Part shown: positions 1-63,535 of the stretch, in pieces
Layout: every line of letters begins with the position of its first letter
Numbering within the stretch: position 1 is the first letter of the stretch
DNA from: Candidatus Aenigmatarchaeota archaeon
Lineage (GTDB): Archaea; Aenigmatarchaeota; Aenigmatarchaeia; QMZP01; QMZT01
Assembly: GCA_026397315.1 (NCBI GenBank)
Contig: JAPLVC010000001.1
Span: forward strand, 149,111 to 213,110
Reading direction: 5' to 3'
Length of the DNA: 64,000 nucleotides
Program-made: the position numbers and the translations under genes
Notes under the pieces: model-generated
Databases searched by the model: none
What the model was told of the DNA's origin: nothing
The model's input: only the letters and a program-made list of their open reading frames with translations

Positions 1-1
1 C

Positions 2-403
2 GCTTTTCCTAAATGGATTCTTGAAAATAAAAATTATTTCAAAGAATTCACGAAAAGATTTTATAATTGCGAGGGCACTTGCTGGGGAGGTAAAAGCCCG
101 GGCATAGGCTTTGAGATGTGGAAAGAAACTGGTAAAATCGACAATTTAAAAGAATTTCTGGAAGTCATAAGATGTGGCCTGAAAAAATTTTTCGATATAA
201 AAACGACGGAAATTTTCACGACAAGTTCCGTGCATAACAGAAAGGATGGCTATGTGACAAGGCCTCTGAGGTTTTATATAAAAAGAAAAGAGTCTATATT
301 TAAATTCTATAGAGATATAGGATTTGAATACGAAAAACAAAATAAATTGAAAAACATAATAGAAAATTGGGGCAGAACCTCTGTGGGAACTGAAGTGCCA
401 TAA
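2..403 (+). CDS. hypothetical protein, 5'-truncated at the window edge; its K/F/Y-rich C-terminal region is compatible with a homing-endonuclease-like fold, but this is unproven
   Basis: The reading frame stays open from position 2 into the listed ORF 116..403, with no stop upstream. Composition is AT-rich, unlike the following GC-rich trm1. The ORF ends at TAA 401-403, immediately before the tRNA-like element. Confidence 0.4.
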   Translation, partial: AFPKWILENKNYFKEFTKRFYNCEGTCWGGKSPGIGFEMWKETGKIDNLKEFLEVIRCGLKKFFDIKTTEIFTTSSVHNRKDGYVTRPLRFYIKRKESIFKFYRDIGFEYEKQNKLKNIIENWGRTSVGTEVP

Positions 404-510
404 CAGTAGCTCAGCCCGGGAGAGCGCTCGTATGTAGCGGGAATAATGAATCCCGCTTCATGGCGAAGCTGAAGACCGATAGGTCGTGGGTTCAAATCCC
501 ACCTGTCCCA
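404..510 (+). pseudogene. degenerate tRNA-Tyr-like element (or tRNA remnant)
   Basis: A D-arm (TAGCTCAGCCCGGGAGAGC), an anticodon-loop-like ..ATGTAG.., a T-arm (GTGGG-TTCAAAT-CCCAC) and a 3' acceptor strand CTGTCCC plus A are all present. The 5' half is about 75% identical to the intron-containing tRNA-Tyr at 38996..39189, and the 3' half shares ACCGATAGGT(C/T)GTG(G/A)GTTCAAA. However, 4 of 7 acceptor pairs and 2 of 5 anticodon-stem pairs cannot form. Confidence 0.45.
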
Positions 511-546: not shown

Positions 547-1620
547 ATGAAAAAGATCGCCGAAGGCAAAGCAAAACTTTACGTTCCAGACGAATCGCTG
601 ACGAAGGACTCGGAAACTTTCTACAACTCGGCCATGGAGCATCAGCGTAACGTGACGATCGCTTGCGTGCGGCTTGCTGGCTCGAAGGACGCGCTGGATC
701 CGCTAGCGGCGACCGGCGTGCGCGGCATCCGCCTGTTAAAGGAAGCAGGCGTCGCCAAAGTCGTGCTCAACGACGTCAGCCCCGCAGCCATAAAACTCGT
801 GCGCAGGAATCTCGTGCTCAACAAGATAAAAAAGTCATCTTATGAAATCTCCAGGAAGGACGCGAACGAGCTTTTCCTCGAAAAAAGGCGCTACAACTTC
901 GTCGACATAGACCCTTTCGGCTCGCCCATCAAGTTCCTGAGAAGCGTCTCTTATGCACTCAGGAAGGACTCGCTGCTGGGCGTGACCGCTACTGATTCCG
1001 GCGCGCTCGCAGGCAAGTTCGCCGACGCCTGCTTCAGGCGCTACGGCGTTTTCGTGTGCGCCACGGACTTCCCGAAAGAGCTGGGCGTGCGCGTGCTCAT
1101 CACTTCGATTCTCAAAAACCTCGCGACGCACGAGATGACTTTCGAGCCGCTGTATTCGCATGCGAACCACTATTTCCGCGTTATCGGACGCGTCTCGTAC
1201 GGGCCGGACAAGAACGTCTCCAAAATAAAAATGGTCTCGTACTGCCCGCAGTGCCATAACAGGAAAATCGGTGTCGAGAGCGTATGCGATAACTGCAAAG
1301 GCGAAATGAAACATATCGGTCCCATATGGACGGGAAAAATCCATGACAGCGAATTTTGTAAAAAGCTGCTGGAAAATTTCGAATTCTCCGGGAAAAGGGA
1401 GATAGAGCTTTCCGCGGCAGAGATAGACCATCCGTTCTATTACGACCTCCACATGCTGGCCCAGTCACTCAAGACCAGCCCTCCGCGCATGGAAAAGCTC
1501 ATCGAAAAGCTGAGAGCGAAAGGCTTCGAGGCGTCGAGAACGCACTTGGAACTCAGGGCCGTAAAAACTAATGCGGGCATAAAAGCAATATCAGTCTTGA
1601 TAGCGGCCGGTAAGAAGTGA
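547..1620 (+). CDS. trm1: tRNA (guanine26-N2)-dimethyltransferase Trm1
   Basis: A 358-aa product starts at MKKIAEGKAKLYVP. The TRM1-family layout is present: a SAM-binding Rossmann region (DALDPLAATGVRGIRL, VVLNDVS), DIDPFGSP and a C-terminal Cys-cluster domain. The start was moved from ORF 460 to ATG 547 so the gene clears the tRNA-like element. Confidence 0.85.
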   Translation: MKKIAEGKAKLYVPDESLTKDSETFYNSAMEHQRNVTIACVRLAGSKDALDPLAATGVRGIRLLKEAGVAKVVLNDVSPAAIKLVRRNLVLNKIKKSSYEISRKDANELFLEKRRYNFVDIDPFGSPIKFLRSVSYALRKDSLLGVTATDSGALAGKFADACFRRYGVFVCATDFPKELGVRVLITSILKNLATHEMTFEPLYSHANHYFRVIGRVSYGPDKNVSKIKMVSYCPQCHNRKIGVESVCDNCKGEMKHIGPIWTGKIHDSEFCKKLLENFEFSGKREIELSAAEIDHPFYYDLHMLAQSLKTSPPRMEKLIEKLRAKGFEASRTHLELRAVKTNAGIKAISVLIAAGKK

Positions 1621-2010
1621 TATTTTATCCTTTTGTTGTCTCGTGAATTCTCTTTCAAGTATCGCATTGAATCTCTGCGCGTCCCATATGTTTATGTTGC
1701 GGTAAACTCCCAGCACGCACACGTCGTGCGGTTTCAGTTCAGCTTCTTCTATCATATCAACTGGTATCTTTATCGAGCCGTCACAAATTTCCACGGACCT
1801 GTTGCTTTCAGAAAGTCTTTCCGGATTGGCCTGGACGTGTTTTTTGTCCCAACCACGTCTCACTAGCTGAAGGTATAGCTCTTTGATTCCATGATTCTGG
1901 AGCAAGTACTGAAGTTTTGGGGAAAGGGTGAGAGTGAGGCCGTCAAAATCGCTTCCCTCGGTGTAGTTTCCCCGGAAAATATAGTTACAGCATTTTAGCA
2001 TGAAAATCAC
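1591..2010 (-). CDS. hypothetical protein (weak minimal-nucleotidyltransferase-like GNYTEGSDFDG segment)
   Basis: A 139-aa ORF in an otherwise empty 430-nt gap. It overlaps the trm1 3' end by 30 nt in convergent orientation. No strong family match was recognised. Confidence 0.35.
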   Translation of the reverse strand: MIFMLKCCNYIFRGNYTEGSDFDGLTLTLSPKLQYLLQNHGIKELYLQLVRRGWDKKHVQANPERLSESNRSVEICDGSIKIPVDMIEEAELKPHDVCVLGVYRNINIWDAQRFNAILEREFTRQQKDKISLLTGRYQD

Positions 2011-3803: not shown

Positions 3804-5549
3804 TTAATTTTTCTTATTTTTTATAATATTGCTAGTCTTGTAATCGCCCAGTTTTTCCCTGATTCTCACAATTTTACACACAATGCCATCTTCAGCCAGA
3901 AGCTTCGCTAGCGCTTTCTCGTCAGCCTTCTGGTCATGGCCCAGCGCTATGATATCCGGCATAGCCCACATTATCGTTTTTAAATAACTGCTTTCTTCTT
4001 TGCCCAAAAATGCACCGTCAACATAAGATATTTCTTCCATGACGGCCAATCGTTGCTTTTCCTCGTTAATAGGTAATCTTCCCTTAAAATTTTTTGCAGT
4101 TTGATCTCTGGCTATTATGACTATCAACAAATCTCCCAATAATTTGGCGGATTTAAGCAAATGTAAATGTCCTGGATGTACTATATCAAAAACTCCTCCA
4201 GTAAGAACAACCTTGAATTTCATCCTACCTTTCTCATTTAGTGAATATTTTCCTGGGAGAAAACCAATTAATGACGATCTTCCTCGACTGCCTAAAAAAA
4301 CTCTATCGCTCATCTTATTTACAAGACCTTCACGTAGGAGTTTGCTAACTATCCTTGCCGTTCTAGTATATGTTCTTTGACATTTTAAAGATAATTCGGG
4401 TATTGTGAAAAAACCATATCTGAGTTCTAAAAGGTATGCTTTTTTTAAAAATTCAACAGAAGCTTTACTGTTAGGAAATTGATATTGTTGATAGGAAGAT
4501 AAAGCAACTTTTAATTTTTCCTTTTTATATTTCAAATCAGAACCAATTTTGGTTTCAAATTTAATAAGCTCACTTCTGTTGTCTATGTTTATTTGCCAAA
4601 CGCTAGAATCTGATTTGATTCCTTTGAACTTGGGTCCCACATATTCTATTCCGACTTTATCCAAAAGTTTGCAATCGCCCAACAGCAGAGGGGGTGGGGT
4701 TTTTTTGTCCCTGTTTACCAATCTTAATACAATTGACCGATGTTTCTTTTTTTGATTAAAATAAACAGAACCATCATCGTCAAAACATCTTCTAATAAAA
4801 GTCGTCAAAAATTTTTCATCGTTACCGAAAACAAAATTCGGAATATTCTGTTTATGTTTTTTCAAGTCCCTTTTAAACAAGCAAAGTGTTACTAATGCAA
4901 TAATCGCAGGTAATTTTATTGTATGGTTTGTTAAACTTTTATTCCAACCACCTTTAGGTTCTTCGATTTGACCAAAAATATTAAAAGCAGCATCCAAGAA
5001 GCTTTTTCTCATTAGAAATGCCTCTTTTTCATCACTTGCTTTTTTCTTCGTGTAGGCTGTGAAATTTTCATTTAAAAAGCCATCATGCATGATTGAAGAG
5101 ATATATAGAGCGCCATTATTTGTATTGAAATTGAAAGGTAGTTTGGGATTCAAAATGCTTTTCCTATAAGTTCCTTTGGGTGTTGTTAATTCAAGAATAT
5201 CTTGGTTCTTGATCAATTTAAAATTGTTAATATAATAAAGTATTTTTATCAAAAGAGACAATTTAATAAACTTTCCTTTATCTAGATTGTATAAGGCAGG
5301 GCAGTATCTTTGTCTTATCTTCTCTCCCAAAAACCTGCCAAACTCTGTCAGATTTTTAAAACCTCCCGTTTTTAAGGATAGAAAAATTAGCTCACGCCCC
5401 TTTTTTTCTGTTAATCTTAAGCTGGTTGAAGGGTGCAAATTCCACAAAAATACAATTCCGGTATTTGGTGGTTTATTGAAAAAATCTTGAGATAACAATT
5501 TTTCATTGAAATTCTCAAACGCTTCTTTTAAAAAATCAATTTCAACCAT
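3804..5549 (-). CDS. fusion protein: N-terminal LAGLIDADG-type homing-endonuclease-like double domain plus C-terminal cytidylyl/adenylyltransferase domain (FAD synthase RibL / TagD-like, HxGH class)
   Basis: Residues ~1-440 contain two LAGLIDADG-like motifs about 100 aa apart: ALYISSIMHDGF and FIRRCFDDDGSVYF. Residues ~441-581 form a complete small nucleotidyltransferase (KFKVVLTGGVFDIVHPGHLHLL ... ISYVD). The whole gene is strongly AT-rich compared with both flanks. Confidence 0.6.
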   Translation of the reverse strand: MVEIDFLKEAFENFNEKLLSQDFFNKPPNTGIVFLWNLHPSTSLRLTEKKGRELIFLSLKTGGFKNLTEFGRFLGEKIRQRYCPALYNLDKGKFIKLSLLIKILYYINNFKLIKNQDILELTTPKGTYRKSILNPKLPFNFNTNNGALYISSIMHDGFLNENFTAYTKKKASDEKEAFLMRKSFLDAAFNIFGQIEEPKGGWNKSLTNHTIKLPAIIALVTLCLFKRDLKKHKQNIPNFVFGNDEKFLTTFIRRCFDDDGSVYFNQKKKHRSIVLRLVNRDKKTPPPLLLGDCKLLDKVGIEYVGPKFKGIKSDSSVWQINIDNRSELIKFETKIGSDLKYKKEKLKVALSSYQQYQFPNSKASVEFLKKAYLLELRYGFFTIPELSLKCQRTYTRTARIVSKLLREGLVNKMSDRVFLGSRGRSSLIGFLPGKYSLNEKGRMKFKVVLTGGVFDIVHPGHLHLLKSAKLLGDLLIVIIARDQTAKNFKGRLPINEEKQRLAVMEEISYVDGAFLGKEESSYLKTIMWAMPDIIALGHDQKADEKALAKLLAEDGIVCKIVRIREKLGDYKTSNIIKNKKN

Positions 5550-5632
5550 ATATAATATTATATTGAATTTAGATATTTAAAACTTGGCAAGCAAATATTA
5601 TCAAGTAATAATTTATAATGGTGGTAGATGAG

Positions 5633-5842
5633 TTACTTCTTAAGGCTCATCGCATCGACGGGGCAGAAGTTCACGCAGGCAGCGCAGTTCACGCATCTCT
5701 TCGCGTCGCATTCTATGCCGTGCTCAGTGAGGTCCAGCGCGAGCTTCGGGCAGACCGCCACGCATCCGCCGCATCGAAGGCACTTGTTCTTGTCCGTTAA
5801 CGCAACCATAAACATCACCCATTTAGACAGAAGCAGATGCAA
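5633..5842 (-). CDS. 4Fe-4S ferredoxin (2 x CxxCxxCxxxCP)
   Basis: CLRCGGCVAVCP and CVNCAACVNFCP motifs are present. The true start is probably an internal Met (MVALTDKNKC, ~58 aa). Confidence 0.7.
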   Translation of the reverse strand: MHLLLSKWVMFMVALTDKNKCLRCGGCVAVCPKLALDLTEHGIECDAKRCVNCAACVNFCPVDAMSLKK

Positions 5843-6955: not shown

Positions 6956-8236
6956 ATGAACATGAGGGAATTCGTCGATTTGCTGGACAAGAAGGGATTG
7001 CTTGTAAAAGTCAGCAAGCCAGTCGATACCAAATACGAGATTTCGACCATAGTCAAGATGCTAGCGGGAAAGCCCGTGCTTTTCGAGCACGTCAAAGGTC
7101 ATGACATGCCGGTCGTATCGAATGTCTGCTCGACGCGCGACCTCGTCTGTCTCGGCCTCGATATCGACAAGAAGGACCTCATAGCGAAGCTCACGCATGC
7201 GATCGAGAACCCGGCGGAGCCGACGAAGAAAGTGTCGCACGAATATCACGAGCTGGAATGCGATTTGCACAAGCTTCCGATTCTGACTTACTATCCAAAG
7301 GACGGCGGGCCGTACATTGCGTCCGGCATCGCTATCGCCAGGGACGCAGAACACGGCACGAACGCTTCTTACCATAGGGCCATGATTCTCGGCAAGGACA
7401 GGATGGTGCTTCGCATTCTCGAACGCCACCTGAACGAGTACAAGAAGCGCGGGCTCAAGGAATTCGCCTTCTGCATAGGCAATCCCACGACCGTTCTGAT
7501 TGGGGCTGCGATTTCGGCTGAACTTGGAAAAAACGAGCTTGCGATAGCGAACGCGCTGCATGAGACGCATACCATCGAACTGAACGGGCATATTGTCCCT
7601 GAGAGCGAGATAGTGATGATATGCGAGTTCACTGGCGAGCTCGCCGAGGAGGGGCCGTTCCTCGACCTGACCGAGACTTTCGACATAGTCAGAAAACAGT
7701 CTGTGGTGCGCGTCAAGAAAATCTACGCGAAGAAAAACGCGCTCTTCCACGCGCTGCTTCCCGGTGATTTAGAACACAAGATTCTCATGGGTATGCCGAG
7801 AGAGCCGACGATATTCCGCGAGGTGAACAAGGTCTGCGACTGCCGCGACGTTTACATCACGCCCGGCGGATGCTCATGGCTGCACGGAGCGGTCAAGATT
7901 CACAAGAAGCACGACGATGACGGGCGCAAGGCGATAGAAGCCGCGTTCAAGGGTCACGCTTCGATGAAGCACGTTTTCGTCGTCGACGACGACATAAACA
8001 TTGAAGAGCCGAAGGAAATTGAGTGGGCGCTAGCGACGCGTTTCCAGGGTGACAAGGACATGATAGTCAGAACGAAAGAGAAAGGCTCGTCCCTCGATCC
8101 TTCGTCTGACATGGCGACGCGCGAGACGACTAAAGTCGGCTTCGACCTTACAAAGCCGCTCGTCTCGAAGGGCAAGGATTTCAGCAGACCCGAGCTGCCC
8201 ATGAAAATAAATCTTGAAGATTACTTGGTGGAGTAG
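6956..8236 (+). CDS. UbiD-family decarboxylase (probable trans-anhydromevalonate-5-phosphate decarboxylase of the archaeal mevalonate pathway)
   Basis: UbiD N-terminus MREFVDLLDKKGLL and conserved blocks through the length. The gene sits between mvk and the dehydratase/UbiX/IPK genes. The start is chosen at an ATG preceded by GGTGA. Confidence 0.8.
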   Translation: MNMREFVDLLDKKGLLVKVSKPVDTKYEISTIVKMLAGKPVLFEHVKGHDMPVVSNVCSTRDLVCLGLDIDKKDLIAKLTHAIENPAEPTKKVSHEYHELECDLHKLPILTYYPKDGGPYIASGIAIARDAEHGTNASYHRAMILGKDRMVLRILERHLNEYKKRGLKEFAFCIGNPTTVLIGAAISAELGKNELAIANALHETHTIELNGHIVPESEIVMICEFTGELAEEGPFLDLTETFDIVRKQSVVRVKKIYAKKNALFHALLPGDLEHKILMGMPREPTIFREVNKVCDCRDVYITPGGCSWLHGAVKIHKKHDDDGRKAIEAAFKGHASMKHVFVVDDDINIEEPKEIEWALATRFQGDKDMIVRTKEKGSSLDPSSDMATRETTKVGFDLTKPLVSKGKDFSRPELPMKINLEDYLVE

Positions 8237-8563
8237 ATGCGCATGCTAACTGCAGGAAAGGGCAAATACAAAGTATGGCTGAAAGAAGCGAGGCAGGGGA
8301 AGGACTTGGTGCTCTTTCTCGGCGGCGGCGAGAGGACACATATAGGATCAGTCGTCGTGTGCGCTCCAGGGAAACCAGCGAAAGTCATCAACAGGAAAGG
8401 CCATTACGATTGGATGGTCGCCATGCCCATAGCGGAGAAAAAGAGCAGAAAGACAAAGAAGGCGGTCGTGTGCATAGCCGGGATTCACGTTAACAATGCT
8501 AGCAAAAAAGAGATAGAGATTCTCAAAAAGAACTGTAAAAAAATAGAGGATTATATTAGATGA
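8237..8563 (+). CDS. hypothetical small protein embedded in the mevalonate operon
   Basis: 108 aa. Its start overlaps the UbiD stop (TAGATG) and its stop overlaps the next start (ATGA), so the gene is translationally coupled on both sides. No family was recognised. Confidence 0.5.
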   Translation: MRMLTAGKGKYKVWLKEARQGKDLVLFLGGGERTHIGSVVVCAPGKPAKVINRKGHYDWMVAMPIAEKKSRKTKKAVVCIAGIHVNNASKKEIEILKKNCKKIEDYIR

Positions 8564-9150
8564 GTCTTATGAAGCGGAACAAGTGGTATAAAATTTTACT
8601 CAAGGAAGCCGAAATGTATTTGAAAAAAGCACCAAAAGTTTCGCCAGTGCACAAATCCGATCACCTGAAAAGGGTCTGGAAGAGGTCGGAGATCCTGTGC
8701 AAGAGTCTGAACTGCGATCCTGATGTCATGGTTGCGGCATGCCTTCTTCATGATCTTGGAAGGCATCACGGGCTCGAAATACACGGAAGGAAATCAGCCG
8801 AACTCGCAAAGCCCATACTTGAAAGGCATAACTTTCCCAGGGACAAAATACCCAAAGTCCTGGATGCGATAGCTCAGCATGACTATAATTTTCCGCCTGC
8901 CGAAAGAAAATCAATAGAGTCCAAGATTCTTTACGATGCCGACAAAATGGACGCTTTCGGAACAGTGGGCATTTACAGGCACTTGCTATTCATTGAGGCG
9001 GGCAGGATAAGGATGAACGAGGTCATTCCACTGCTAGAAAAAAGATGGACTGGTTTAACGCTGATTGAAAGCAGAAAAATCGCAAAGGAGGATTACGAAT
9101 ACACAGTTAACTTTTTTAAAAGCTTGCAAAAAGAATTGAAGGAGGCATGA
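8560..9150 (+). CDS. HD-domain metal-dependent phosphohydrolase
   Basis: The HD motif LLHDLGR and a downstream D (YDADKMD) are present. 196 aa. Located inside the mevalonate operon. Confidence 0.75.
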   Translation: MSLMKRNKWYKILLKEAEMYLKKAPKVSPVHKSDHLKRVWKRSEILCKSLNCDPDVMVAACLLHDLGRHHGLEIHGRKSAELAKPILERHNFPRDKIPKVLDAIAQHDYNFPPAERKSIESKILYDADKMDAFGTVGIYRHLLFIEAGRIRMNEVIPLLEKRWTGLTLIESRKIAKEDYEYTVNFFKSLQKELKEA

Positions 9151-9153
9151 ATT

Positions 9154-10335
9154 ATGTATCTCACTAAAGAACAGGAGAATATGCTTAATGGCGGGCACGG
9201 CGAAGTCGTCGAAAGGCAAATGCGGCTGCTTGTGCGGCTCGGCGAAATATACAAGGCCGACAAGATGATAGACGTCGGCTCCGTGCAGGTCGCCGGCGTT
9301 TCATACAAGTCGATAGGCGACCCGGGTCTCGAGTTCCTCGAGGATATTGCTCACAAAGGAGCGAAGGTCAAGGTCCTGACTTTTTTGAATCCCGCGGGTA
9401 TGGACATGGAGAACTGGAGGGAAATAGGCTTCCCCGAAAGCTTCGCGACGATGCAGAAGAAGGTTATGGACGCGTTCGAGCAGATGGGCATCGTCATGTC
9501 AGCGACATGCACGCCATATCTCGCCGGCAACCTGCCTCGCTTCCGCGAGCACATCGCATGGTCCGAGAGCTCGGCTGTTTCATTTTCCAATTCAGTAATT
9601 GGTGCAAGGACGAACCGTGAAGGCGGACCGTCCGCACTGGCGGCTGCGATATGCGGCTTCACTCCGAACTACGGCCTGCACCTCGACGAGAACAGGAAGC
9701 CCCACATGCTCGTGAAAGTCGACGCGAAGCTGGAATACAACTCGGATTTCGGCGCGCTCGGCTACCACGTAGGCAAGATCGCCGGCAGCAAGATTCCTTA
9801 TTTCACCGGCATAAAGAACGCGAACACCGACAATCTCAAAGCGCTCGGCGCTGCGATGGCGGCCAGCGGGGCTGTCGCTCTCTATCATGCGGAAGGTCTT
9901 ACGCCAGAAGCGAGCACGATGGAAACGAAAGGCCTCGAGATCATAGAGGTCGGCGAGAAGGAGCTGAAAGAAGCGTATGCGAAACTCAACACGGGCAAGG
10001 ACCCGGACCTCGTCGTCGTGGGATGCCCGCACGCATCGCTCAGGGAGATAATAACAATCGCGAAAAAAATCGATGGCAAGCACCTGAAAAAGCCGTTCTG
10101 GATATGCACCTCGCGCGTCATGAAGGACGCTGCGACGCGCATGGGCCTGACGGCAACGATAGAGAAAGCAGGCGGAAAAATCGTGGCTGATACGTGCATG
10201 GTCGTCTCGCCCATCGAGGAAATGGGCTTCAAGACGACCGGAGTCGACTCTGGAAAAGCGGGAAACTATCTTCCCGGCTTCTGCAAGCAGAGCGTCGTGT
10301 TCAAGAACATAGACGATCTGATAAAATCCGGATGA
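9154..10335 (+). CDS. aconitase-X-type dehydratase, large subunit (putative phosphomevalonate dehydratase, DUF521)
   Basis: 393 aa with MYLTKEQENMLNGGHGE...VGSVQVAGVSYK, typical of the AcnX catalytic subunit. It is followed directly by the small swivel subunit. Confidence 0.8.
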   Translation: MYLTKEQENMLNGGHGEVVERQMRLLVRLGEIYKADKMIDVGSVQVAGVSYKSIGDPGLEFLEDIAHKGAKVKVLTFLNPAGMDMENWREIGFPESFATMQKKVMDAFEQMGIVMSATCTPYLAGNLPRFREHIAWSESSAVSFSNSVIGARTNREGGPSALAAAICGFTPNYGLHLDENRKPHMLVKVDAKLEYNSDFGALGYHVGKIAGSKIPYFTGIKNANTDNLKALGAAMAASGAVALYHAEGLTPEASTMETKGLEIIEVGEKELKEAYAKLNTGKDPDLVVVGCPHASLREIITIAKKIDGKHLKKPFWICTSRVMKDAATRMGLTATIEKAGGKIVADTCMVVSPIEEMGFKTTGVDSGKAGNYLPGFCKQSVVFKNIDDLIKSG

Positions 10336-38177: not shown

Positions 38178-38323
38178 TGAGCCCGGCGGGAATCGAACCC
38201 GCGACCCCCAGATGTCTTTCCGCACCTTGTTCTGTCATTGGCTTTCGCCAGAAAGCGATAACCTCAGCATACTTTTATCGAACAGATAAAAGTCTGGTGC
38301 TCTACCGATTGAGCTACAGGCCC
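38178..38323 (-). tRNA. tRNA-Lys (anticodon UUU) with a ~73-nt intron at the canonical 37/38 position
   Basis: Acceptor GGGCCUG/CGGGCUC (two G-U pairs), D-arm GCUC-AAUCGGUA-GAGC, anticodon stem CCAGA/UCUGG, loop CUUUUA+A, T-arm GCGGG-UUCGAUU-CCCGC, discriminator A. Confidence 0.75.
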
Positions 38324-38630: not shown

Positions 38631-38746
38631 GGTGAGCAGCTATCTGAGGTTCCCCCTTGTTCAGGAGTACTTTCCAGACCGTCGGAAAGTTTAACTTCCG
38701 TGTTCGAAATGGGAACGGGTGAACCTTTCCACTTTGGCCGCTCAAT
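38631..38746 (-). rRNA. rrf: 5S ribosomal RNA
   Basis: The minus strand has ..CACCCGUUCCCAUUUCGAACACGGAAGUUAAAC.., matching the universally conserved 5S loop and helix region. Helix I pairs 5' UGAGCGGC with 3' GCUGCUCA. Length is about 116 nt. Confidence 0.7.
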
Positions 38747-39405: not shown

Positions 39406-42360
39406 TCAACATCCGGGTTTGCTGCCTTTTCCGAAGTCCTTGCCTATCGTGACCAGATCGAAAATGTTGACTCCCGAGTCATGGTTTATGTCAGCAGCCA
39501 CGTTGAAGCCGGAAGTCAAACCGAAGTTTGTGGCGACAAGAACCGCATCGGAAATATCCACGCAGTGGTCCCCGGTCGTATCGCCGGAGCACAACGGGTC
39601 AGTGCCGTCGCAATTCTCGTCTGCGCTATTGTCGCATATTTCTGTTGTTGGGTTTATTGATCCTGTGCAGTTGCTCCATTGTCCTGCTACGCAGGTTTGG
39701 TTTCCTAGTTTGCAGATTCCTATGTTGTTTGTTCCGCATGTTTTTTTCTGCCCTGCTGTGCAGTTGCATGTAGAGCATAATGAAAGATTAACTCCATATG
39801 AATTTCCTTCAGGCAATACTATTGACAAATTGCCATAACTATTCGTAATGGCAGTTGTATTCAGAATTGAATTGATAAATAGATTATAAGTCCTGTCTGG
39901 AATAAGACCTGTTTTATTCATGATTGTTGGTTTATCCATCCTTTCTACGTAAAATGTCGTTTTAATATTAGACAGATTCTTTATTACAAACCAATTAGCA
40001 GATGCGTTAGAATAACAGTTTTGAGTTGGTGAGATAAATGTGTAGTTTGCAATTGTAATTTTTTGGTTGCAATAATGATATATGTTAAAATTTGATTTAT
40101 TCATCACGTAGTATTTTGTGTTATTAATTGTTTTTACTAATTCTCGCATATACAATTCATTGCCCGAATAATTTAGATGCACAACATCATAAAGAAGCGA
40201 AGTATTCCCTCCCATCAAATACTGAATTTCCATAAAGGGAATCTGATTGTCAATTGCGATTTGCCTTAAGCCAGCATCATATAATGATTGAATTGTGCGA
40301 TTGTCATAATTTGTTATATATAATGTAGTTGTAGAAGTTATTAGAGTTGTGTTTAAAGCATTGTTTTTTATTCCCTCAAGTAATATCCTGGCATCTCTTG
40401 TGTACTCTGAAGCTGATACTCCCTTCGGAATATCATTTATGTTTGGGAGAACATACGCGAAGCGAGGATTGTACGAAACAACGTCATTCATATATCTATT
40501 TACAGCACTTGTAGCAGGATTTGGGCACGTGCTAGCTAAGCAAGACCCGTCTATCCCTTTATTCACGGAGGTTAGATTCCAAAATGAGTAATTTGTAGCT
40601 AATTCTAAAGCCGCAGGTGCGATGAAACTTCCACGAGGAAACCCCCTCATTACAGAATCACCAAGGCCAAGAAGAGTATTATTCCAAGAATTGACTGCGG
40701 GTGTCGTGCCGTTCACTGTTATATTAATGTTTGGAGTGAAGTCCCCGAACCATTCCACTCCCTCTTTAAGCATCCTCCATCTTAGTACATATGTTCCGAG
40801 CTTGGATGGAGCGATGATGGTGAACCTGAACTCCTTGCTCGACCCGGGATTCACTATCTCACCCTGATTAAGAAATGCTCCGGAAATAACCCAAACGCTG
40901 TCATTCCCTGATTGAATCCCCAGACGATGAGAACTCGCCTTAGTCCATGCCGTCGTACCAGTATTATTCATGGTGACAGAGATATTATAATTTTTTCCAG
41001 CAGCCATCCTTGTTGGAATAGACTGTGAGACGAACCGAGCATTATTCACAGGAGGCTGAGTCGTATTTTGATACTTGCAGCTTTGATTGCACAGCCCGGT
41101 TCCTGGTGCCTTGCCATTGCAGGATTGTGATGCGTTGCAGGCGGAATCACAGAGGTTATTTCCAGAACCGCCAGGCCTTACTGTTAATGTACCATTGCAT
41201 TTTGCTTGTTCCGCGTTTCTATAGCTGACTCCGTTCACCCCGCAGAATGGATTCGGGTCCTGGATGCTGCACATGACTTCTTTCCCCCAGGCTTTATGCT
41301 GGGCCAGCATATCAGGGACATGCAAGCCAATTCCCAAGCACTTCATTGTGGTGGCTGAAAGATATGCATTATAAGCCGCGGCAGTAGAATATGTGAATCC
41401 TATCACTCCTACCACATCAGAATCAGATTTAGCCCAATCATAATACCATTGCTGCTGGCAAATGCTCGGTATCTGACTTATGCCCCAGCCTCCGCCATAT
41501 TGATTGCACTTAAAATTCTGCGGTATCAAAAGTATTTTTTTGGAGGAATCAGAATGAACAACCCTATCAATCTCGGCCAATTGTTCCGCTGTACATCCAT
41601 CGGGATAAGGCTCATCACAAGGGGCATATTGGATTATAGTGCCGCCGGATTTAACCCAATAAAAAACATCGTTCATTTGATCAAGGAAAGATTGTTTATT
41701 AGCGGCATTGCATGCGAAAGGGTTTGTATGCGAAGCTTCATAATCAGTGGTGAAAAAGTATGGGTCAAGGGCTATAAAGTCTAATTTTGGATTATTGAGA
41801 ACTGATCTGCCGCCATCGCCGCCCCAAGCCACATTAAAAACAATAAATGTCTCTATATTTGGAAAGTATTCTTTTGATAGATTGATAATCAAATCAACTC
41901 TTTCTGGATGATGTATAAACTCAAAATAATTATACGTGTTTGGCTCATCCATCAAATAAAATGACCAGACTTTATCAGCATTAGCGCCAAGATTAGTCTT
42001 TATCTTATCGAGGCAGCTTCGCCACACACTTTCTGATTCCCAAAAATTATGTGCATAATAAGATGTAAGCGAAAGAATTATCTTATGACCATTATTATAT
42101 GCAAAATTTATATTCGTGTCATAAGTCTTATTGCTGGTATCACAGGAAGCACCAATAAAAACGATGTTCGTGAAGAGGGAGAGATTCGCCTCTTCTGCGG
42201 TGCCGGTCCTCACAGGGGCGCCATAAAATCCATAATATTTTAAGTTGGTCGAAGAAGCTTGCGCGATTCCGATAGTATTTTCAAATAGACATGAAATGAT
42301 TAAGACGACGGTAGTAATTACTAATAAGAGAATGGGCCTCTTCATAAAAACAATAATCAT
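39406..42360 (-). CDS. large secreted Cys-rich protein with a putative glycoside-hydrolase-like N-terminal region and a C-terminal dockerin-like Ca-binding repeat
   Basis: A signal peptide is followed by ~950 aa with many Cys, many N-x-S/T sequons and a LMDEPN segment. The C-terminus ADINHDSGVNIFDLV matches the dockerin/EF-hand loop DxNxDxxVNxxD. The gene is AT-rich relative to its neighbours. Confidence 0.6.
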   Translation of the reverse strand: MIIVFMKRPILLLVITTVVLIISCLFENTIGIAQASSTNLKYYGFYGAPVRTGTAEEANLSLFTNIVFIGASCDTSNKTYDTNINFAYNNGHKIILSLTSYYAHNFWESESVWRSCLDKIKTNLGANADKVWSFYLMDEPNTYNYFEFIHHPERVDLIINLSKEYFPNIETFIVFNVAWGGDGGRSVLNNPKLDFIALDPYFFTTDYEASHTNPFACNAANKQSFLDQMNDVFYWVKSGGTIIQYAPCDEPYPDGCTAEQLAEIDRVVHSDSSKKILLIPQNFKCNQYGGGWGISQIPSICQQQWYYDWAKSDSDVVGVIGFTYSTAAAYNAYLSATTMKCLGIGLHVPDMLAQHKAWGKEVMCSIQDPNPFCGVNGVSYRNAEQAKCNGTLTVRPGGSGNNLCDSACNASQSCNGKAPGTGLCNQSCKYQNTTQPPVNNARFVSQSIPTRMAAGKNYNISVTMNNTGTTAWTKASSHRLGIQSGNDSVWVISGAFLNQGEIVNPGSSKEFRFTIIAPSKLGTYVLRWRMLKEGVEWFGDFTPNINITVNGTTPAVNSWNNTLLGLGDSVMRGFPRGSFIAPAALELATNYSFWNLTSVNKGIDGSCLASTCPNPATSAVNRYMNDVVSYNPRFAYVLPNINDIPKGVSASEYTRDARILLEGIKNNALNTTLITSTTTLYITNYDNRTIQSLYDAGLRQIAIDNQIPFMEIQYLMGGNTSLLYDVVHLNYSGNELYMRELVKTINNTKYYVMNKSNFNIYHYCNQKITIANYTFISPTQNCYSNASANWFVIKNLSNIKTTFYVERMDKPTIMNKTGLIPDRTYNLFINSILNTTAITNSYGNLSIVLPEGNSYGVNLSLCSTCNCTAGQKKTCGTNNIGICKLGNQTCVAGQWSNCTGSINPTTEICDNSADENCDGTDPLCSGDTTGDHCVDISDAVLVATNFGLTSGFNVAADINHDSGVNIFDLVTIGKDFGKGSKPGC

Positions 42361-45173: not shown

Positions 45174-45734
45174 TCATTCAAAGAAGCCGAGCTTGTTCAT
45201 AATTTGTCTGACTTCCGGTGAAAATGAATCCAGATTGATGAAATTTTTGATTTTTATATGGCCACGGTTTCTCTCGGCAAAATCCATTAAACTTTCCATG
45301 AAATATGATGCTCCTTTTGCGAAATCTTTTCTGGCAACATCTGACGCAATTTCCTTCTCACGCCCCATGAAACTTTTCTCAAACAGCCTGTAAAGTCTGA
45401 AATTAGACAGCTTACCACCAACAGTCAGATAGCCTTTGTATTTGTCGTTTGTAATGTCTGGGTTGAGGAGATTTATGCGCAGTAATTTTTCTTCACCGTG
45501 TCTTATATCACTGCTTCTAACTAAATGCGCAGGTAAAAACGTACCTCTTTGAGTAAGCATACCATCTTCTATAGCGACATGAATACCTGACTCGCTGAAA
45601 TCTATTCCTGTATTACTGGCTTCTCCGAAAGGTCTATATGCAATGGACGGAAATCCGTTTCGGTATGTTGTTTCTATTACAGAAACAGGAGCGAATTTAG
45701 CATCCTGAACGTAATTCTGGCTTGGCATAAACAA
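45174..45734 (-). CDS. conserved hypothetical protein
   Basis: 186 aa with typical codon usage and no recognised domain. Confidence 0.5.
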   Translation of the reverse strand: MFMPSQNYVQDAKFAPVSVIETTYRNGFPSIAYRPFGEASNTGIDFSESGIHVAIEDGMLTQRGTFLPAHLVRSSDIRHGEEKLLRINLLNPDITNDKYKGYLTVGGKLSNFRLYRLFEKSFMGREKEIASDVARKDFAKGASYFMESLMDFAERNRGHIKIKNFINLDSFSPEVRQIMNKLGFFE

Positions 45735-56928: not shown

Positions 56929-57846
56929 TTGTCAATTTTTTATAATATTATGAAAGATGTACCCGACGGTATGGCCACGACATCCGATGTGGCAAACTAT
57001 CTTGGCATTTCCCCAACAACTGTCAGAAGATACTTGACTCCAGCAGATAAACTTGGTAATAGTAATGTGTACAAATGGAGCGACGTCAAAAAGCTAGAAA
57101 TTGAGATGGGCCACACATCGGATGCTACAGAAGCTCTTTCGCCTGAAAATATTGGAATTGATACAGGGTCTTTTGACGCAAGCGCCGTTTTATACGATGC
57201 ATTGAACCGGCTATCAAAAAACATCAGAAGAGTCACTCGGGAGAGAAACGGGCTAAAAGTCGAAGCCGCCCTTGGCCCTAATGGCAAGTACACTGGAGAT
57301 AACGTGGTAGAAGGCGTGACCCATGTCACCAGATATAGAAGAAGTGTTGAATCTGCAGAACTTTTTAAATACATCCCGTTGGAAGATTTGGTCAAAAAGA
57401 GAGTGTTCACTCCTTCTTATGACATGAAAAAACTGCGCAAAATAGGACCAAACCTTGTTTCTAGAGTTGTCATAGCAACGCTGAAAGACATTGAAAAATA
57501 TTGCAAAGAAAATGGTATAGAAATTGAAAAAATTGGCAGGAAAAAACTGGCAACCTTGACCAGCGACTTTAGAAAGAAAACAAAGACAAAAATACCGCCA
57601 GTAATACTCAAAGAAATGATAGAAGACCGTCACTATGGAAAGATCAGTGCCGGTGCTGTAAGGGACTATGCTACTGATATTCTGAAAAGTTGCATCAAAA
57701 AGACACCATACACGAGAGAACTTAAAGTAAGACTCACGGCTGAATACAGAAACTCTGTGCAAAAAATCATAGAAGAAGTTGAAAATAATGCTACGAAACA
57801 AACTGAAAGCGAGATAAACAGACTTTTCGGCATAGATGATATTTAA
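56929..57846 (+). CDS. HTH-domain protein (MerR/excisionase-like N-terminus), rest unknown
   Basis: ATTSDVANYLGISPTTVRRYL is a helix-turn-helix. The gene is AT-rich, unlike its flanks. Confidence 0.5.
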   Translation: MSIFYNIMKDVPDGMATTSDVANYLGISPTTVRRYLTPADKLGNSNVYKWSDVKKLEIEMGHTSDATEALSPENIGIDTGSFDASAVLYDALNRLSKNIRRVTRERNGLKVEAALGPNGKYTGDNVVEGVTHVTRYRRSVESAELFKYIPLEDLVKKRVFTPSYDMKKLRKIGPNLVSRVVIATLKDIEKYCKENGIEIEKIGRKKLATLTSDFRKKTKTKIPPVILKEMIEDRHYGKISAGAVRDYATDILKSCIKKTPYTRELKVRLTAEYRNSVQKIIEEVENNATKQTESEINRLFGIDDI

Positions 57847-62422: not shown

Positions 62423-63535
62423 TTATTTTAATTTAACAGCCCAATATGACGGATCTGACTTGGCTCCCATTTTCCTTTTCATGTCGTCTAGCCCCCTAAG
62501 CTCGGATCCTCCGAGAAGAACTTCGTCGAAATTTCTTGCCTCCAAGTCTTCAAAGATAGTGAGATAAGTTGCTGCCGGCATTGCAGTAAAACCTCTTTTC
62601 CGTTCCTTTTTGTCTGCAATTGTTTCATTAGGATTCATTCCAAGTTCATTGAATACAAACATCGTATCTCTTAGTGTAAACGGCGTATATAAAGCGACTC
62701 TCTTGTCAGAAAGTTTCTCACCAACAAACAATGAGACAGGCAGATTGTCCAAAAAACCTAAATGCGCAATTGTAGAATCCAATCTTGCTATTTTTGCATC
62801 TATAGAATTGTAGTGATCTTCGGGAACAGAGCCAACTTGCTTGCCTGCTTTTCTGAGCATATCAAAATGCTTTTCAACAATAATCTTTGCAATCTCATAA
62901 TCTTCTTCTCCTCGATATTGTCTTAGGTGATATCTCAGTCCATTTCTTTTTAAAAAGTTATCAAATCTGTTGGACGCCAGTCTTAATTTTTCATTGCTTT
63001 TGATTGCATTATCCAAATTTATCAAAGAATGTGAAAAGGTTTCATCCTCTCTAGAGGCAGATGCATGCCAAGGATTATGAGATTCATCCACAGACAGAAA
63101 GCCTTTATTTAATAGTTCATCGTATTGTTCTCTGATCAAAAAACGTGCATAAACTCCTTTGCAAGGTATTTTGCAATCACTTATTGCAGCATCAGTAAAT
63201 TCCATGATTTTCTTTGTTGCATTTCTACCTCTGGGTGAAACCACAAAAATATAGCCAGTAGAATCTTTTGGGTCCGATTCTTTCCTGTAGTATCCGATGG
63301 AAAATAAGGTTTCTCCGTCTTCAAAAACCAGCCCGAACGGATGATTTGAACTCCTACCTCTCGAGTTATTACCGTTTGAGTAGAGGGCAAAACCTATATT
63401 GCTTACGCCATAACTGCCATCTTTGTATCTGTCGATTGTTCCTTTTCGGGCTTCTTCTGCCGTAAAGGACCTGACACTGTCAAAATTTTCCAGTAAATAT
63501 TTTTCCAGGATGTCTCTATTATTTTCGCTACTCAT
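62423..63535 (-). CDS. hypothetical protein
   Basis: 370 aa, AT-rich, no recognised domain. Confidence 0.5.
   Translation of the reverse strand: MSSENNRDILEKYLLENFDSVRSFTAEEARKGTIDRYKDGSYGVSNIGFALYSNGNNSRGRSSNHPFGLVFEDGETLFSIGYYRKESDPKDSTGYIFVVSPRGRNATKKIMEFTDAAISDCKIPCKGVYARFLIREQYDELLNKGFLSVDESHNPWHASASREDETFSHSLINLDNAIKSNEKLRLASNRFDNFLKRNGLRYHLRQYRGEEDYEIAKIIVEKHFDMLRKAGKQVGSVPEDHYNSIDAKIARLDSTIAHLGFLDNLPVSLFVGEKLSDKRVALYTPFTLRDTMFVFNELGMNPNETIADKKERKRGFTAMPAATYLTIFEDLEARNFDEVLLGGSELRGLDDMKRKMGAKSDPSYWAVKLK

What the first reader, a model, noticed from the sequence alone, without database searches (positions are those of the whole stretch)
3804..5549. Homing-endonuclease-like double LAGLIDADG domain fused in frame to a complete small cytidylyltransferase, in an AT-rich island
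The 581-aa product has two LAGLIDADG-like motifs (..ALYISSIMHDGF.. and ..FIRRCFDDDGSVYF..) about 100 residues apart, the spacing of single-chain homing endonucleases. It then runs without a stop into a full ~140-aa HxGH nucleotidyltransferase (GGVFDIVHPGHLHLL...ISYVD), which could be expressed alone from the internal Met. There is no N-extein, so this is not a classical intein. Composition is sharply AT-rich against GC-rich flanks (the aIF5A gene on one side, ferredoxin and mvk on the other), so the endonuclease part looks horizontally acquired. Options are a free-standing endonuclease gene that inserted upstream of, and fused to, a RibL/FAD-synthase-like gene; a domesticated DNA-binding or nuclease module now regulating or targeting the transferase; or a decayed mini-intein whose N-extein was lost.
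Basis: partly seen in the sequence, partly recalled or inferred. Interest (0 to 1): 0.7.

Follow-up and report, generated by a model that had tools for sequence, protein, structure and literature searches.

The report
Endonuclease cassette that overwrote ribL's start
A 1.7-kb piece of foreign DNA, encoding a homing-endonuclease-like protein already joined to the front part of a vitamin-B2 cofactor enzyme, has overwritten the start of this archaeon's own copy of that enzyme gene and made an in-frame hybrid; a close relative still has the untouched gene, which gives a clean before-and-after view of a selfish gene spreading by rewriting the end of a host gene.

Summary

The main new result comes from a syntenic Aenigmatarchaeota contig (86-91% nt identity) that carries a stand-alone 137-aa ribL at the same site. 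Window 3960-5632 (1,673 nt, GC 0.32, GC3 0.19-0.31 against a host value of about 0.70) replaces that contig's 24-nt spacer and its first 86 ribL codons. The breakpoints lie right after the ferredoxin stop codon and inside the conserved PDIIALGHDQ motif. The first 88 RibL residues are therefore foreign (40-42% identical to native-type RibL) and the last 51 are native (84-94%).

The endonuclease did not fuse to the resident gene here. It arrived already fused, and the same three-part architecture occurs in two distant relatives. It belongs to an undescribed family of mostly free-standing genes found mainly in DPANN archaea.

Best reading: a homing element that replaces a gene end, like yeast WHO elements and fungal mitochondrial mORFs, but at the 5' end, in frame, in an archaeal chromosome. 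Endonuclease activity and its target are inferred, not shown. It is not an intein.

The parts
3804..5549 (-). Complete 581-aa ORF: HTH region, double LAGLIDADG core, winged helix, RibL-type nucleotidyltransferase (hybrid gene)
   Evidence: Full-length AF2 model pLDDT 94.5, pTM 0.85. Identical in an independent assembly.
3960..5632 (-). Foreign cassette, 1,673 nt, GC 0.317. It replaces 282 nt of the syntenic relative (24-nt spacer plus ribL codons 1-86).
   Evidence: BLASTN of window against L005: 86-91% identity on both sides and no alignment across 3960-5632. Junction alignments. Composition.
5550..5632 (-). Foreign AT-rich spacer (GC 0.205) upstream of the start codon. It holds a TATA-like TTTTAAATAT at 5573-5582, centred about 28 nt upstream of the ATG, so the transcript may be leaderless (inferred).
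   Evidence: Sequence read directly. No counterpart in L005. GC. The promoter role is inference only, since AT-rich DNA gives TATA-like strings by chance.
5160..5549 (-). N-terminal helical region, residues 1-130, with a probable Cro/HipB-type helix-turn-helix
   Evidence: Family profile hits HipB and lambda-repressor-like HTHs weakly, E 0.02-0.06. A few members hit Pfam HTH_26 or HTH_31. The model is helical with pLDDT above 90.
4494..5159 (-). Single-chain double LAGLIDADG endonuclease core, residues 131-352
5076..5111 (-). LAGLIDADG motif 1, ALYISSIMHDGF; catalytic position D156
   Evidence: D156 is D or E in 137 of 137 aligned family members and invariant in alignment A1.
4758..4799 (-). 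LAGLIDADG motif 2, FIRRCFDDDGSVYF; catalytic position D259, just before G260
   Evidence: Position 259 is E or D in 144 of 144 members; D258 is D in 138 of 144.
4224..4493 (-). Linker helix and MarR/DtxR-like winged helix with a long wing, residues 353-442
3960..4223 (-). Foreign 5' part of the transferase domain, residues 443-530, including HPGH at 4167-4178
   Evidence: GC3 0.307. 40-42% identical to native-type RibL (P0151-P0153) and 40-48% to the RibL domains of other fused proteins.
3807..3959 (-). Native 3' part of ribL, residues 531-581 (stop codon at 3804-3806). Homology with the relative resumes at CCGGATATCATAGCGCTGGG, which encodes PDIIALG.
   Evidence: 84-94% aa identity to P0151-P0153. 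84.6% nt identity to L005. The BLAST block starts at 3959. Alignment.
5633..5842 (-). Native ferredoxin gene; its TAA stop (5633-5635) marks the left breakpoint

Best explanation
This is a homing-type selfish cassette that spreads by replacing the 5' end of the host's ribL gene. The cassette (window 3960-5632) carries its own upstream spacer and one reading frame. That frame encodes an HTH region, a single-chain LAGLIDADG endonuclease with both catalytic acids, a winged helix, and the first 88 or so residues of a RibL-type FMN adenylyltransferase. SHOWN: the cassette is foreign, it sits exactly where a close relative has a 24-nt spacer plus ribL codons 1-86, the downstream crossover lies in the conserved PDIIALGHDQ-coding stretch, the join is in frame, and the result is a hybrid RibL domain that is predicted to fold normally. 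The same three-part architecture exists in two distant relatives, so the fusion was made before it reached this genome. INFERRED: the endonuclease cuts ribL alleles that lack the cassette, at or near their 5' region. Repair then copies the cassette, together with its own divergent and therefore uncuttable ribL 5' part, from an incoming donor. The ribL segment serves both as the homology arm and as the immunity determinant. Because the frame stays open, the host keeps RibL activity as the C-terminal domain of the fusion, so the invasion costs little and the cassette cannot be lost by simple deletion. The HTH and winged-helix modules probably lengthen the DNA target or repress the element's own expression.
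Against: No cleavage activity, target site or donor has been identified, and the closest N-domain relative is only about 40% identical. The left junction, right after the ferredoxin stop, shows no visible homology that would explain the upstream crossover. Ordinary horizontal transfer plus homologous recombination would give the same mosaic without any endonuclease action. At another site (between L24e and S28e) two family members are 41% identical while the flanking ribosomal proteins are 44-57% identical. That looks like stable vertical inheritance and hints at a host function. The fusion has lasted down to 30-38% identity, and two-domain winged-helix-RibL proteins exist, one next to riboflavin kinase. 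That fits a regulatory role. The query alone is below Pfam's LAGLIDADG threshold.
Confidence: 0.58

Rival explanations
1. Domesticated DNA-binding module. The HTH-LAGLIDADG-winged-helix part is a host regulator or targeting module, comparable to WhiA or RbkR, that makes RibL a bifunctional enzyme and regulator of flavin metabolism. The whole functional gene reached this genome by ordinary horizontal transfer and homologous recombination, and the endonuclease played no part.
Against: Both catalytic acidic positions are conserved in essentially all members, whereas WhiA has lost them and cannot cut DNA (PMC3384342). No WhiA Pfam model matches. The gene is polymorphic between genomes about 88% identical, has strongly foreign composition, and every family member is AT-richer than its flanks. 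The host's relatives manage with a plain 137-aa RibL.
Confidence: 0.25
2. Passenger or decaying endonuclease. The cassette once homed, but the nuclease in this copy is now inactive. It survives only because deleting it would destroy the 5' part of the ribL copy at this locus.
For: Homing endonuclease genes usually decay after they become fixed (abstract of PMC13619312, listed). The query is the weakest LAGLIDADG_3 match in its family (E 0.055). It has unusual residues next to conserved positions: H155, and R227 where 134 of 143 members have G. No second ribL or relic lies in the window.
Against: The ORF is intact over 581 codons. Both catalytic Asp residues and the other nearly invariant residues are kept. 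The model is very confident. The strongly foreign composition points to a recent arrival, with little time for decay.
Confidence: 0.12
3. Decayed intein that lost its N-extein.
For: The closest structures are intein-embedded endonuclease domains: TliVMA, PI-PfuI, PI-SceI. NCBIfam gives weak hits to the intein-bearing DnaB and RpoA'' models.
Against: The structural matches cover only the endonuclease domain, about 180-210 residues. Residues 1-130 are a helical HTH-like region, not a beta-rich Hint domain. There is no N-terminal Cys/Ser and no His-Asn plus Cys/Ser/Thr at the junction (..EKGR|MKFKV..). About 180 relatives are free-standing genes of 350-440 aa with no exteins.
Confidence: 0.01
4. 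Metagenome assembly or binning chimera that joins an AT-rich organism's gene into a GC-rich contig.
For: The window comes from a MAG, the composition changes abruptly, and the right junction lies in a motif conserved between organisms.
Against: The contig returns to perfect synteny on both sides and the join is in frame. An independent Logan assembly of SRR20698647 is 100% identical over 7,746 nt across both junctions. The same architecture occurs in unrelated samples.
Confidence: 0.02

Closest known systems
WHO elements of Torulaspora and Lachancea yeasts, relatives of HO (Coughlan et al. 2020, PMC7282813)
   Same: A LAGLIDADG endonuclease gene related to intein endonucleases lies beside an essential metabolic gene. 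It homes without protein splicing by cutting sensitive alleles, and repair replaces the end of the host gene with the version carried by the element. Here too the closest structures are intein endonuclease domains, and one end of a housekeeping gene has been replaced by a divergent copy carried with the endonuclease gene.
   Different: WHO elements replace the 3' end of FBA1. From my own knowledge of that paper, not re-read here, they are separate downstream genes, carry zinc fingers and leave relic fragments. In this window the 5' end is replaced, the endonuclease is translated in frame with the host enzyme, no relic is left, the extra DNA-binding modules are an HTH and a winged helix, and the host is an archaeon. 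Cleavage is shown for WHO and only inferred here.
Mobile ORF elements (mORFs) that create hybrid genes in fungal mitochondria: Allomyces atp6; Glomus atp6, atp9, cox2, nad3 (PMC3630166)
   Same: An endonuclease ORF (LAGLIDADG or GIY-YIG) travels with a foreign terminal piece of a host gene, can lie in phase with it, and produces a hybrid gene. The event is recognised by comparison with a close relative that lacks the ORF: the native part is over 90% identical and the inserted part about 64-81%. The logic and evidence are the same here.
   Different: mORFs sit at the 3' end and usually leave the displaced native C-terminus downstream as a duplicate. Here the element is at the 5' end, the replacement is clean, and the setting is an archaeal chromosome rather than an organelle.
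Single-chain LAGLIDADG homing endonucleases of archaeal introns and inteins (I-DmoI, I-Tsp061I, PI-PfuI, TliVMA intein)
   Same: [quoted passage not shown]
   Different: It is neither in an intron nor in an intein. It carries extra N-terminal HTH and C-terminal winged-helix modules, and sequence identity is only 13-19%.
WhiA/DUF199 (bacterial domesticated LAGLIDADG plus HTH regulator)
   Same: [quoted passage not shown]
   Different: [quoted passage not shown] No WhiA Pfam model matches. The hosts are archaea rather than Gram-positive bacteria.
RbkR (archaeal winged-helix plus CTP-dependent riboflavin kinase regulator, PMC5397151) and RibL (archaeal FAD synthetase)
   Same: A winged helix fused to the N-terminus of an enzyme of the archaeal flavin cofactor pathway. 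The C-terminal domain is a RibL-type HxGH nucleotidyltransferase.
   Different: The enzyme is RibL, not RibK. No operator sites have been sought or shown. The winged helix here also occurs as part of a free-standing endonuclease family.

Membership tests
LAGLIDADG homing endonuclease (single-chain) | Two LAGLIDADG helices about 100 residues apart that form the domain interface, each followed by a beta-sheet half-domain | tested here: met
LAGLIDADG homing endonuclease (single-chain) | Metal-binding acidic residue at the C-terminal end of each motif | tested here: met
   D156 is D or E in 137/137 members; position 259 is E or D in 144/144.
LAGLIDADG homing endonuclease (single-chain) | Curated sequence model (Pfam PF14528) above its gathering score | tested here: not met
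   The query scores 14.2 bits against a cut-off of 22.5, E 0.055. At family level, 46 of 73 members match at E<=0.01 with a best of 3e-10, and the profile reaches PDB endonucleases at E 2e-7.
LAGLIDADG homing endonuclease (single-chain) | Site-specific double-strand cleavage of the allele lacking the element | not testable with these tools
   Needs biochemistry. The candidate substrate is the L005-type locus, L005 6950-7300.
LAGLIDADG homing endonuclease (single-chain) | Presence/absence polymorphism at a homologous site in close relatives | tested here: met
   Window against L005, 86-91% nt identity, with the cassette present only in the window. P0152 and P0153 are further stand-alone ribL genes, P0152 beside mevalonate kinase as in the window.
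Intein | Hint splicing domain with blocks A, B, F, G; N-terminal Cys/Ser; C-terminal His-Asn followed by Cys/Ser/Thr; flanking exteins | tested here: not met
   The protein starts MVEIDF and the junction reads EKGR|MKFKV. Residues 1-130 are helical and HTH-like. Matches to inteins cover only their endonuclease domains. There is no N-extein.
WhiA/DUF199 | LAGLIDADG scaffold without catalytic residues, plus WhiA-type N-terminal and HTH domains | tested here: not met
RibL / cytidylyltransferase-like (PF01467) | HxGH motif and Rossmann-like nucleotidyltransferase domain above the Pfam cut-off | tested here: met
   HPGH at residues 458-461. PF01467 68.6 bits against a cut-off of 21. TIGR00125 59 bits against 27.7. 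3glv E 2.5e-30. Model pLDDT 89-98 per 10-residue block across residues 443-560, including the junction.
RibL / cytidylyltransferase-like (PF01467) | Specifically FMN adenylyltransferase (FAD synthetase) activity | not testable with these tools
   No equivalog-level model matched. The assignment rests on source annotations of close homologues as 'FAD synthetase' and on one two-domain homologue lying next to riboflavin kinase.
Gene-end-replacing homing elements (WHO / mORF type) | The endonuclease gene travels with a divergent copy of one end of the adjacent host gene, and this copy replaces the resident end | tested here: met
   The cassette holds ribL codons 1-88 at 40-42% identity to the native type, while the native 3' end is kept at 84-94%.
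Gene-end-replacing homing elements (WHO / mORF type) | Allele-specific cleavage of the host gene by the element's endonuclease | not testable with these tools
   Inferred only.
RbkR-like bifunctional enzyme/regulator | Winged helix fused N-terminally to a flavin-pathway enzyme, with operator sites upstream of flavin genes | tested here: inconclusive
   The fusion itself is present. Operators were not searched for, because too few related loci are available.

The most novel reading that the evidence does not exclude
The HTH-LAGLIDADG-winged-helix module may not be merely selfish. It could be a catalytically competent DNA-binding, nicking or cutting factor, widespread in DPANN archaea, that hosts retain; it sits stably inside the L7Ae-S28e-L24e ribosomal operon in some lineages. 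In the RibL fusions it would couple flavin-cofactor synthesis or sensing to site-specific DNA recognition. That would make it an archaeal counterpart of WhiA or RbkR that, unlike WhiA, has kept its nuclease active site.
Probability: 0.15. Interest if true: 0.8.

Novelty: new variant of a known kind. Interest (0 to 1): 0.62.

Why it matters
Homing that rewrites the end of a host gene has been shown in yeast nuclei (WHO elements and HO) and in fungal mitochondria (mORFs). This locus gives a natural before-and-after pair showing the same strategy in an archaeal chromosome, but at the 5' end and with the endonuclease translated as part of the host enzyme. It shows how a selfish gene can make itself hard to delete, how it can move pieces of housekeeping genes between distant lineages, and how multi-domain enzyme-plus-DNA-binding proteins can arise. 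It also exposes a large, uncharacterised family of endonuclease-like genes, at least 188 clusters at 50% identity, found mostly in DPANN and other archaeal MAGs, with conserved active sites and long predicted DNA-binding surfaces. These could be a source of new rare-cutting enzymes. For annotation, the NCBI name 'adenylyltransferase/cytidyltransferase family protein' describes only a quarter of this protein.

Tried and rejected
1. Intein reading: rejected, because there is no Hint domain and there are no splicing residues.
2. Assembly chimera: rejected by an identical independent assembly.
3. Donor search: a degenerate motif-2 pattern against metagenome contigs found only the P0006 contig again and some free-standing members, with no close donor.
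4. Viral vector: the family pattern in IMG/VR gave one chance match (GC 0.59, no family hit). PHROGs gave nothing relevant.
5. Defence system: PADLOC hit only its generic 'HEase' models, on a relative, plus a weak winged-helix-like match.
6. The search for related loci with alignments A1 and A5 failed because no stretch was conserved enough; a hand-made DNA pattern replaced it.
7. The third word-indexed protein search did not return the fused relatives, but direct look-ups worked.
8. The afdb50 fold library was unavailable.
9. Endonuclease remnant upstream of the two-domain gene P0136: only a faint, unconvincing similarity, not claimed.
10. Internal ribosome-binding site or promoter for M443: the DNA (GAGAAAGGTAGGATG) is at best weakly Shine-Dalgarno-like, and relatives lack the Met, so separate expression is not supported.
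11. Relic of the displaced native 5' end, or a second ribL in the window: none found.
Full report
**1. The observation**

Residues 449-577 match Pfam CTP_transf_like (E 8e-19). Residues 448-579 match the Thermoplasma volcanium RibL-type structure 3glv (E 2.5e-30). The two LAGLIDADG-like motifs are at residues 147-158 and 251-264.

On its own the query reaches only E 0.055 against Pfam LAGLIDADG_3, below the curated cut-off. It also gives weak hits to the intein-bearing DnaB and RpoA'' NCBIfam models. At this stage the fold claim was therefore a lead, not a result. GC is about 0.30-0.33 across most of the gene, against about 0.53 in the flanks.

**2. The N-terminal module is a true double-LAGLIDADG protein with two extra DNA-binding modules**

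An exhaustive HMMER search with residues 1-441 found 188 cluster representatives at E<=1e-3. Most are 350-440 aa, so they are free-standing. An alignment of 73 of them (A1) has D156, Y166 and D258 invariant.

- The family profile reaches the endonuclease domains of the TliVMA intein (7qsu, 2.2e-7), PI-PfuI (1dq3, 2.4e-7) and PI-PkoII (1.8e-4).
- Its C-terminal 60 or so positions hit DtxR/ScaR/MarR-type and eS25 winged helices.
- Its N-terminal part hits HipB/Cro-type HTHs weakly.
- 46 of 73 members match Pfam LAGLIDADG_3.

Across 150 representatives, the residue just before the final Gly of each motif is acidic in 137/137 (position 156) and 144/144 (position 259). WhiA, the known domesticated LAGLIDADG regulator, has lost these residues and cannot cut DNA (PMC3384342).

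There is no Hint domain, no splicing residue and no extein, so it is not an intein or an intein remnant.

**3. The decisive comparison: a syntenic relative without the cassette**

The closest relatives of the transferase part are stand-alone 137-139-aa proteins at 57-60% identity (P0151-P0153). P0151 lies on an Aenigmatarchaeota MAG contig (L005) with the same gene order as the window: Trm1, a hypothetical gene, TFB, aIF5A, ribL, ferredoxin, mvk, UbiD, LpdD, AcnX.

BLASTN shows 86-91% identity across the whole block, with one interruption. Window 8538-5633 aligns to L005 4076-6976, and window 3959-2049 aligns to L005 7259-9204. So window 3960-5632 (1,673 nt) stands in place of L005 6977-7258 (282 nt).

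- **Left breakpoint:** immediately after the ferredoxin TAA.
- **Right breakpoint:** identity resumes at CCGGATATCATAGCGCTGGG, which encodes the conserved PDIIALG motif, exactly at the codon for P531.

At the protein level, RibL-domain residues 1-88 are 40-42% identical to P0151-P0153 and residues 89-139 are 84-94% identical.

Composition agrees:

| Segment | GC3 (or GC) |
|---|---|
| Cassette segments | GC3 0.19-0.31 (overall GC 0.317) |
| Upstream spacer | GC 0.205 |
| Host genes | GC3 about 0.69 |
| L005 native ribL, codons 1-86 | GC3 0.71 |
| Retained native 3' end | GC3 0.49 (0.53 in L005) |

No relic of the displaced 5' end and no second ribL occurs in the 64-kb window.

An independent Logan assembly of SRR20698647 is 100% identical over 7,746 nt spanning both junctions. 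I do not know whether the NCBI MAG was built from the same reads, so the independence is that of the assembler.

**4. The fusion predates its arrival**

P0006 (558 aa) and P0007 (586 aa) have the same architecture: HTH, LAGLIDADG core, winged helix, RibL. They align end to end with the query at 34-39% identity. They were recovered from three contigs in different samples and from two contigs, respectively. P0006's gene is again an AT-rich island, 0.31 against 0.40-0.44.

None of these, nor the two-domain winged-helix-RibL proteins (P0136, P0140, P0149, P0154-P0157), has a Met where the query has M443. In those proteins RibL is made only as a fusion, so the query's internal Met is probably incidental.

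The full-length model is confident throughout (pLDDT 94.5, pTM 0.85), with block means of 89-96 around the chimeric junction. The hybrid enzyme is therefore expected to fold.

**5. The wider family**

A degenerate DNA pattern spanning the conserved P-F-N-F stretch and motif 1 found 29 loci in GTDB species representatives. 28 are true members, with 175-436 bits against the family HMM. They occur in Woesearchaeota, Nanoarchaeota, Aenigmatarchaeota and Micrarchaeota MAGs, with a few in MAGs labelled Thaumarchaeota/Nitrososphaerota, Brockarchaeota and Methanosarcinales.

- Every copy is AT-richer than its flanks, for example 0.34 against 0.52, 0.40 against 0.55 and 0.44 against 0.59.
- Two genomes carry two copies each.
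- One copy is split into two ORFs.
- Neighbourhoods are varied: the largest shared-neighbour group covers 5 of 31 loci.
- Some members lack the winged helix.

All of this fits mobile DNA. One observation points the other way. In two contigs the gene lies inside the L7Ae-S28e-L24e cluster on the opposite strand. The two copies are 41% identical, about as diverged as the flanking ribosomal proteins at 44-57%. That looks like stable inheritance and keeps a host-function reading alive.

I found no description of this family in the searchable literature.

**6. Mechanism**

*Shown:* a pre-assembled foreign cassette replaced the resident spacer and the first 86 ribL codons. The 3' crossover lies in a conserved coding motif, and the result is an in-frame hybrid.

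*Inferred:* the LAGLIDADG enzyme cuts ribL alleles that lack the cassette. Repair from an incoming cassette-bearing DNA copies the endonuclease gene together with its own divergent, and hence uncuttable, ribL 5' part.

[quoted passage not shown] It is also the strategy inferred for mitochondrial mORFs, which create hybrid atp6, atp9, cox2 and nad3 genes (PMC3630166).

The differences here are:
- the 5' end is replaced rather than the 3' end;
- the endonuclease is translated in frame with the enzyme;
- the replacement is clean, with no relic;
- the protein has HTH and winged-helix accessory modules;
- the host is an archaeon.

A TATA-like TTTTAAATAT centred about 28 nt upstream of the ATG lies inside the cassette. 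This suggests the cassette brings its own promoter and a leaderless mRNA. That is inference only, because the DNA there is AT-rich.

**7. Rivals**

- **Domesticated regulator (0.25).** A WhiA-like or RbkR-like regulator transferred by ordinary HGT. Supported by the WhiA structural match, by RbkR as an established winged-helix-plus-flavin-enzyme regulator (PMC5397151), by two-domain winged-helix-RibL proteins, one beside riboflavin kinase, and by the stable ribosomal-operon copies. Opposed by the conserved catalytic acids and by the presence/absence polymorphism with foreign composition.
- **Decaying passenger endonuclease (0.12).**
- **Decayed intein (0.01).**
- **Assembly chimera (0.02).**

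**8. Verdict**

The finding is a new variant of a known kind: a homing element that replaces a gene end, in an archaeal chromosome, fused in frame to the 5' end of ribL. It also exposes a large uncharacterised family of endonuclease-like genes, found mainly in DPANN archaea. Enzyme activity, target site and donor remain untested.

Noticed in passing
window 1-403 (+), with L005 10826-11608: The truncated AT-rich ORF at the start of the window (116-403, GC3 0.33) is the 3' end of a second, more distant LAGLIDADG-core gene. Its complete 260-aa orthologue in L005 scores E 4e-17 against the family HMM (core positions 115-323 only, with no HTH or winged helix) and has no Pfam hit. Unlike the ribL cassette, it is present in both genomes, 3.4 kb from the fused gene.
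   Followed up: partly
window 403-506 (+): Rfam reports a borderline tRNA (29.7 bits, 104 nt, so probably intron-bearing or atypical) directly abutting the end of that second LAGLIDADG-like ORF. ARAGORN found no tRNA anywhere in the window.
   Followed up: no
window 38178-38323 (-) and 38631-38745 (-): A 146-nt tRNA hit (59 bits), long enough to hold an intron, lies next to a 5S rRNA gene. ARAGORN missed this one too.
   Followed up: no
window 39406-42360 (-), 45174-45734 (-), 56929-57846 (+), 62423-63535 (-): Four more ORFs have foreign-looking composition (GC3 0.33-0.39 against a host value of about 0.69): a 984-aa protein with GDSL-lipase and Ig-like domains, two ORFs with no Pfam hit, and a 305-aa protein with an HTH_17-type N-terminus. 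This stretch of genome appears to hold several acquired islands.
   Followed up: partly
L001 4492-5718 and L002 6001-7167: Free-standing family members sit inside the conserved L7Ae-S28e-L24e ribosomal-protein cluster, on the opposite strand, in two divergent DPANN-like contigs. The two copies are 41% identical, about as diverged as the flanking ribosomal proteins (44-57%). L001 also carries a second, more distant member (7936-9396) next to a class I aminoacyl-tRNA synthetase gene (Glu/Gln type).
   Followed up: partly
L007 7001-7711, L050 4001-4705, L052 2264-3019: Two-domain winged-helix-RibL proteins (224-251 aa) without an endonuclease exist in several lineages, one annotated as Hodarchaeales. 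In L007 the gene is next to a CTP-dependent riboflavin kinase. In L050 it lies downstream of an IS605 OrfB/TnpB gene and upstream of CoaBC. A possible remnant of the endonuclease's last helix just upstream of the L050 gene was too weak to call.
   Followed up: partly
L045 180-1238, L047 5035-6045, L032 1390-2653: The family is modular and shows decay. Two metagenomic members end right after the LAGLIDADG core, with no winged helix. One Aenigmatarchaeota copy (L032) is split into two overlapping ORFs, which is either a frameshift or a sequencing error.
   Followed up: no
window 1591-2010 (-): The small conserved ORF between the Trm1 and TFB genes gives a sub-threshold MraZ/AbrB-like hit (E 2.5e-4, 21.4 bits against a cut-off of 23). 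Its counterpart in L005 has no Pfam hit on record.
   Followed up: no
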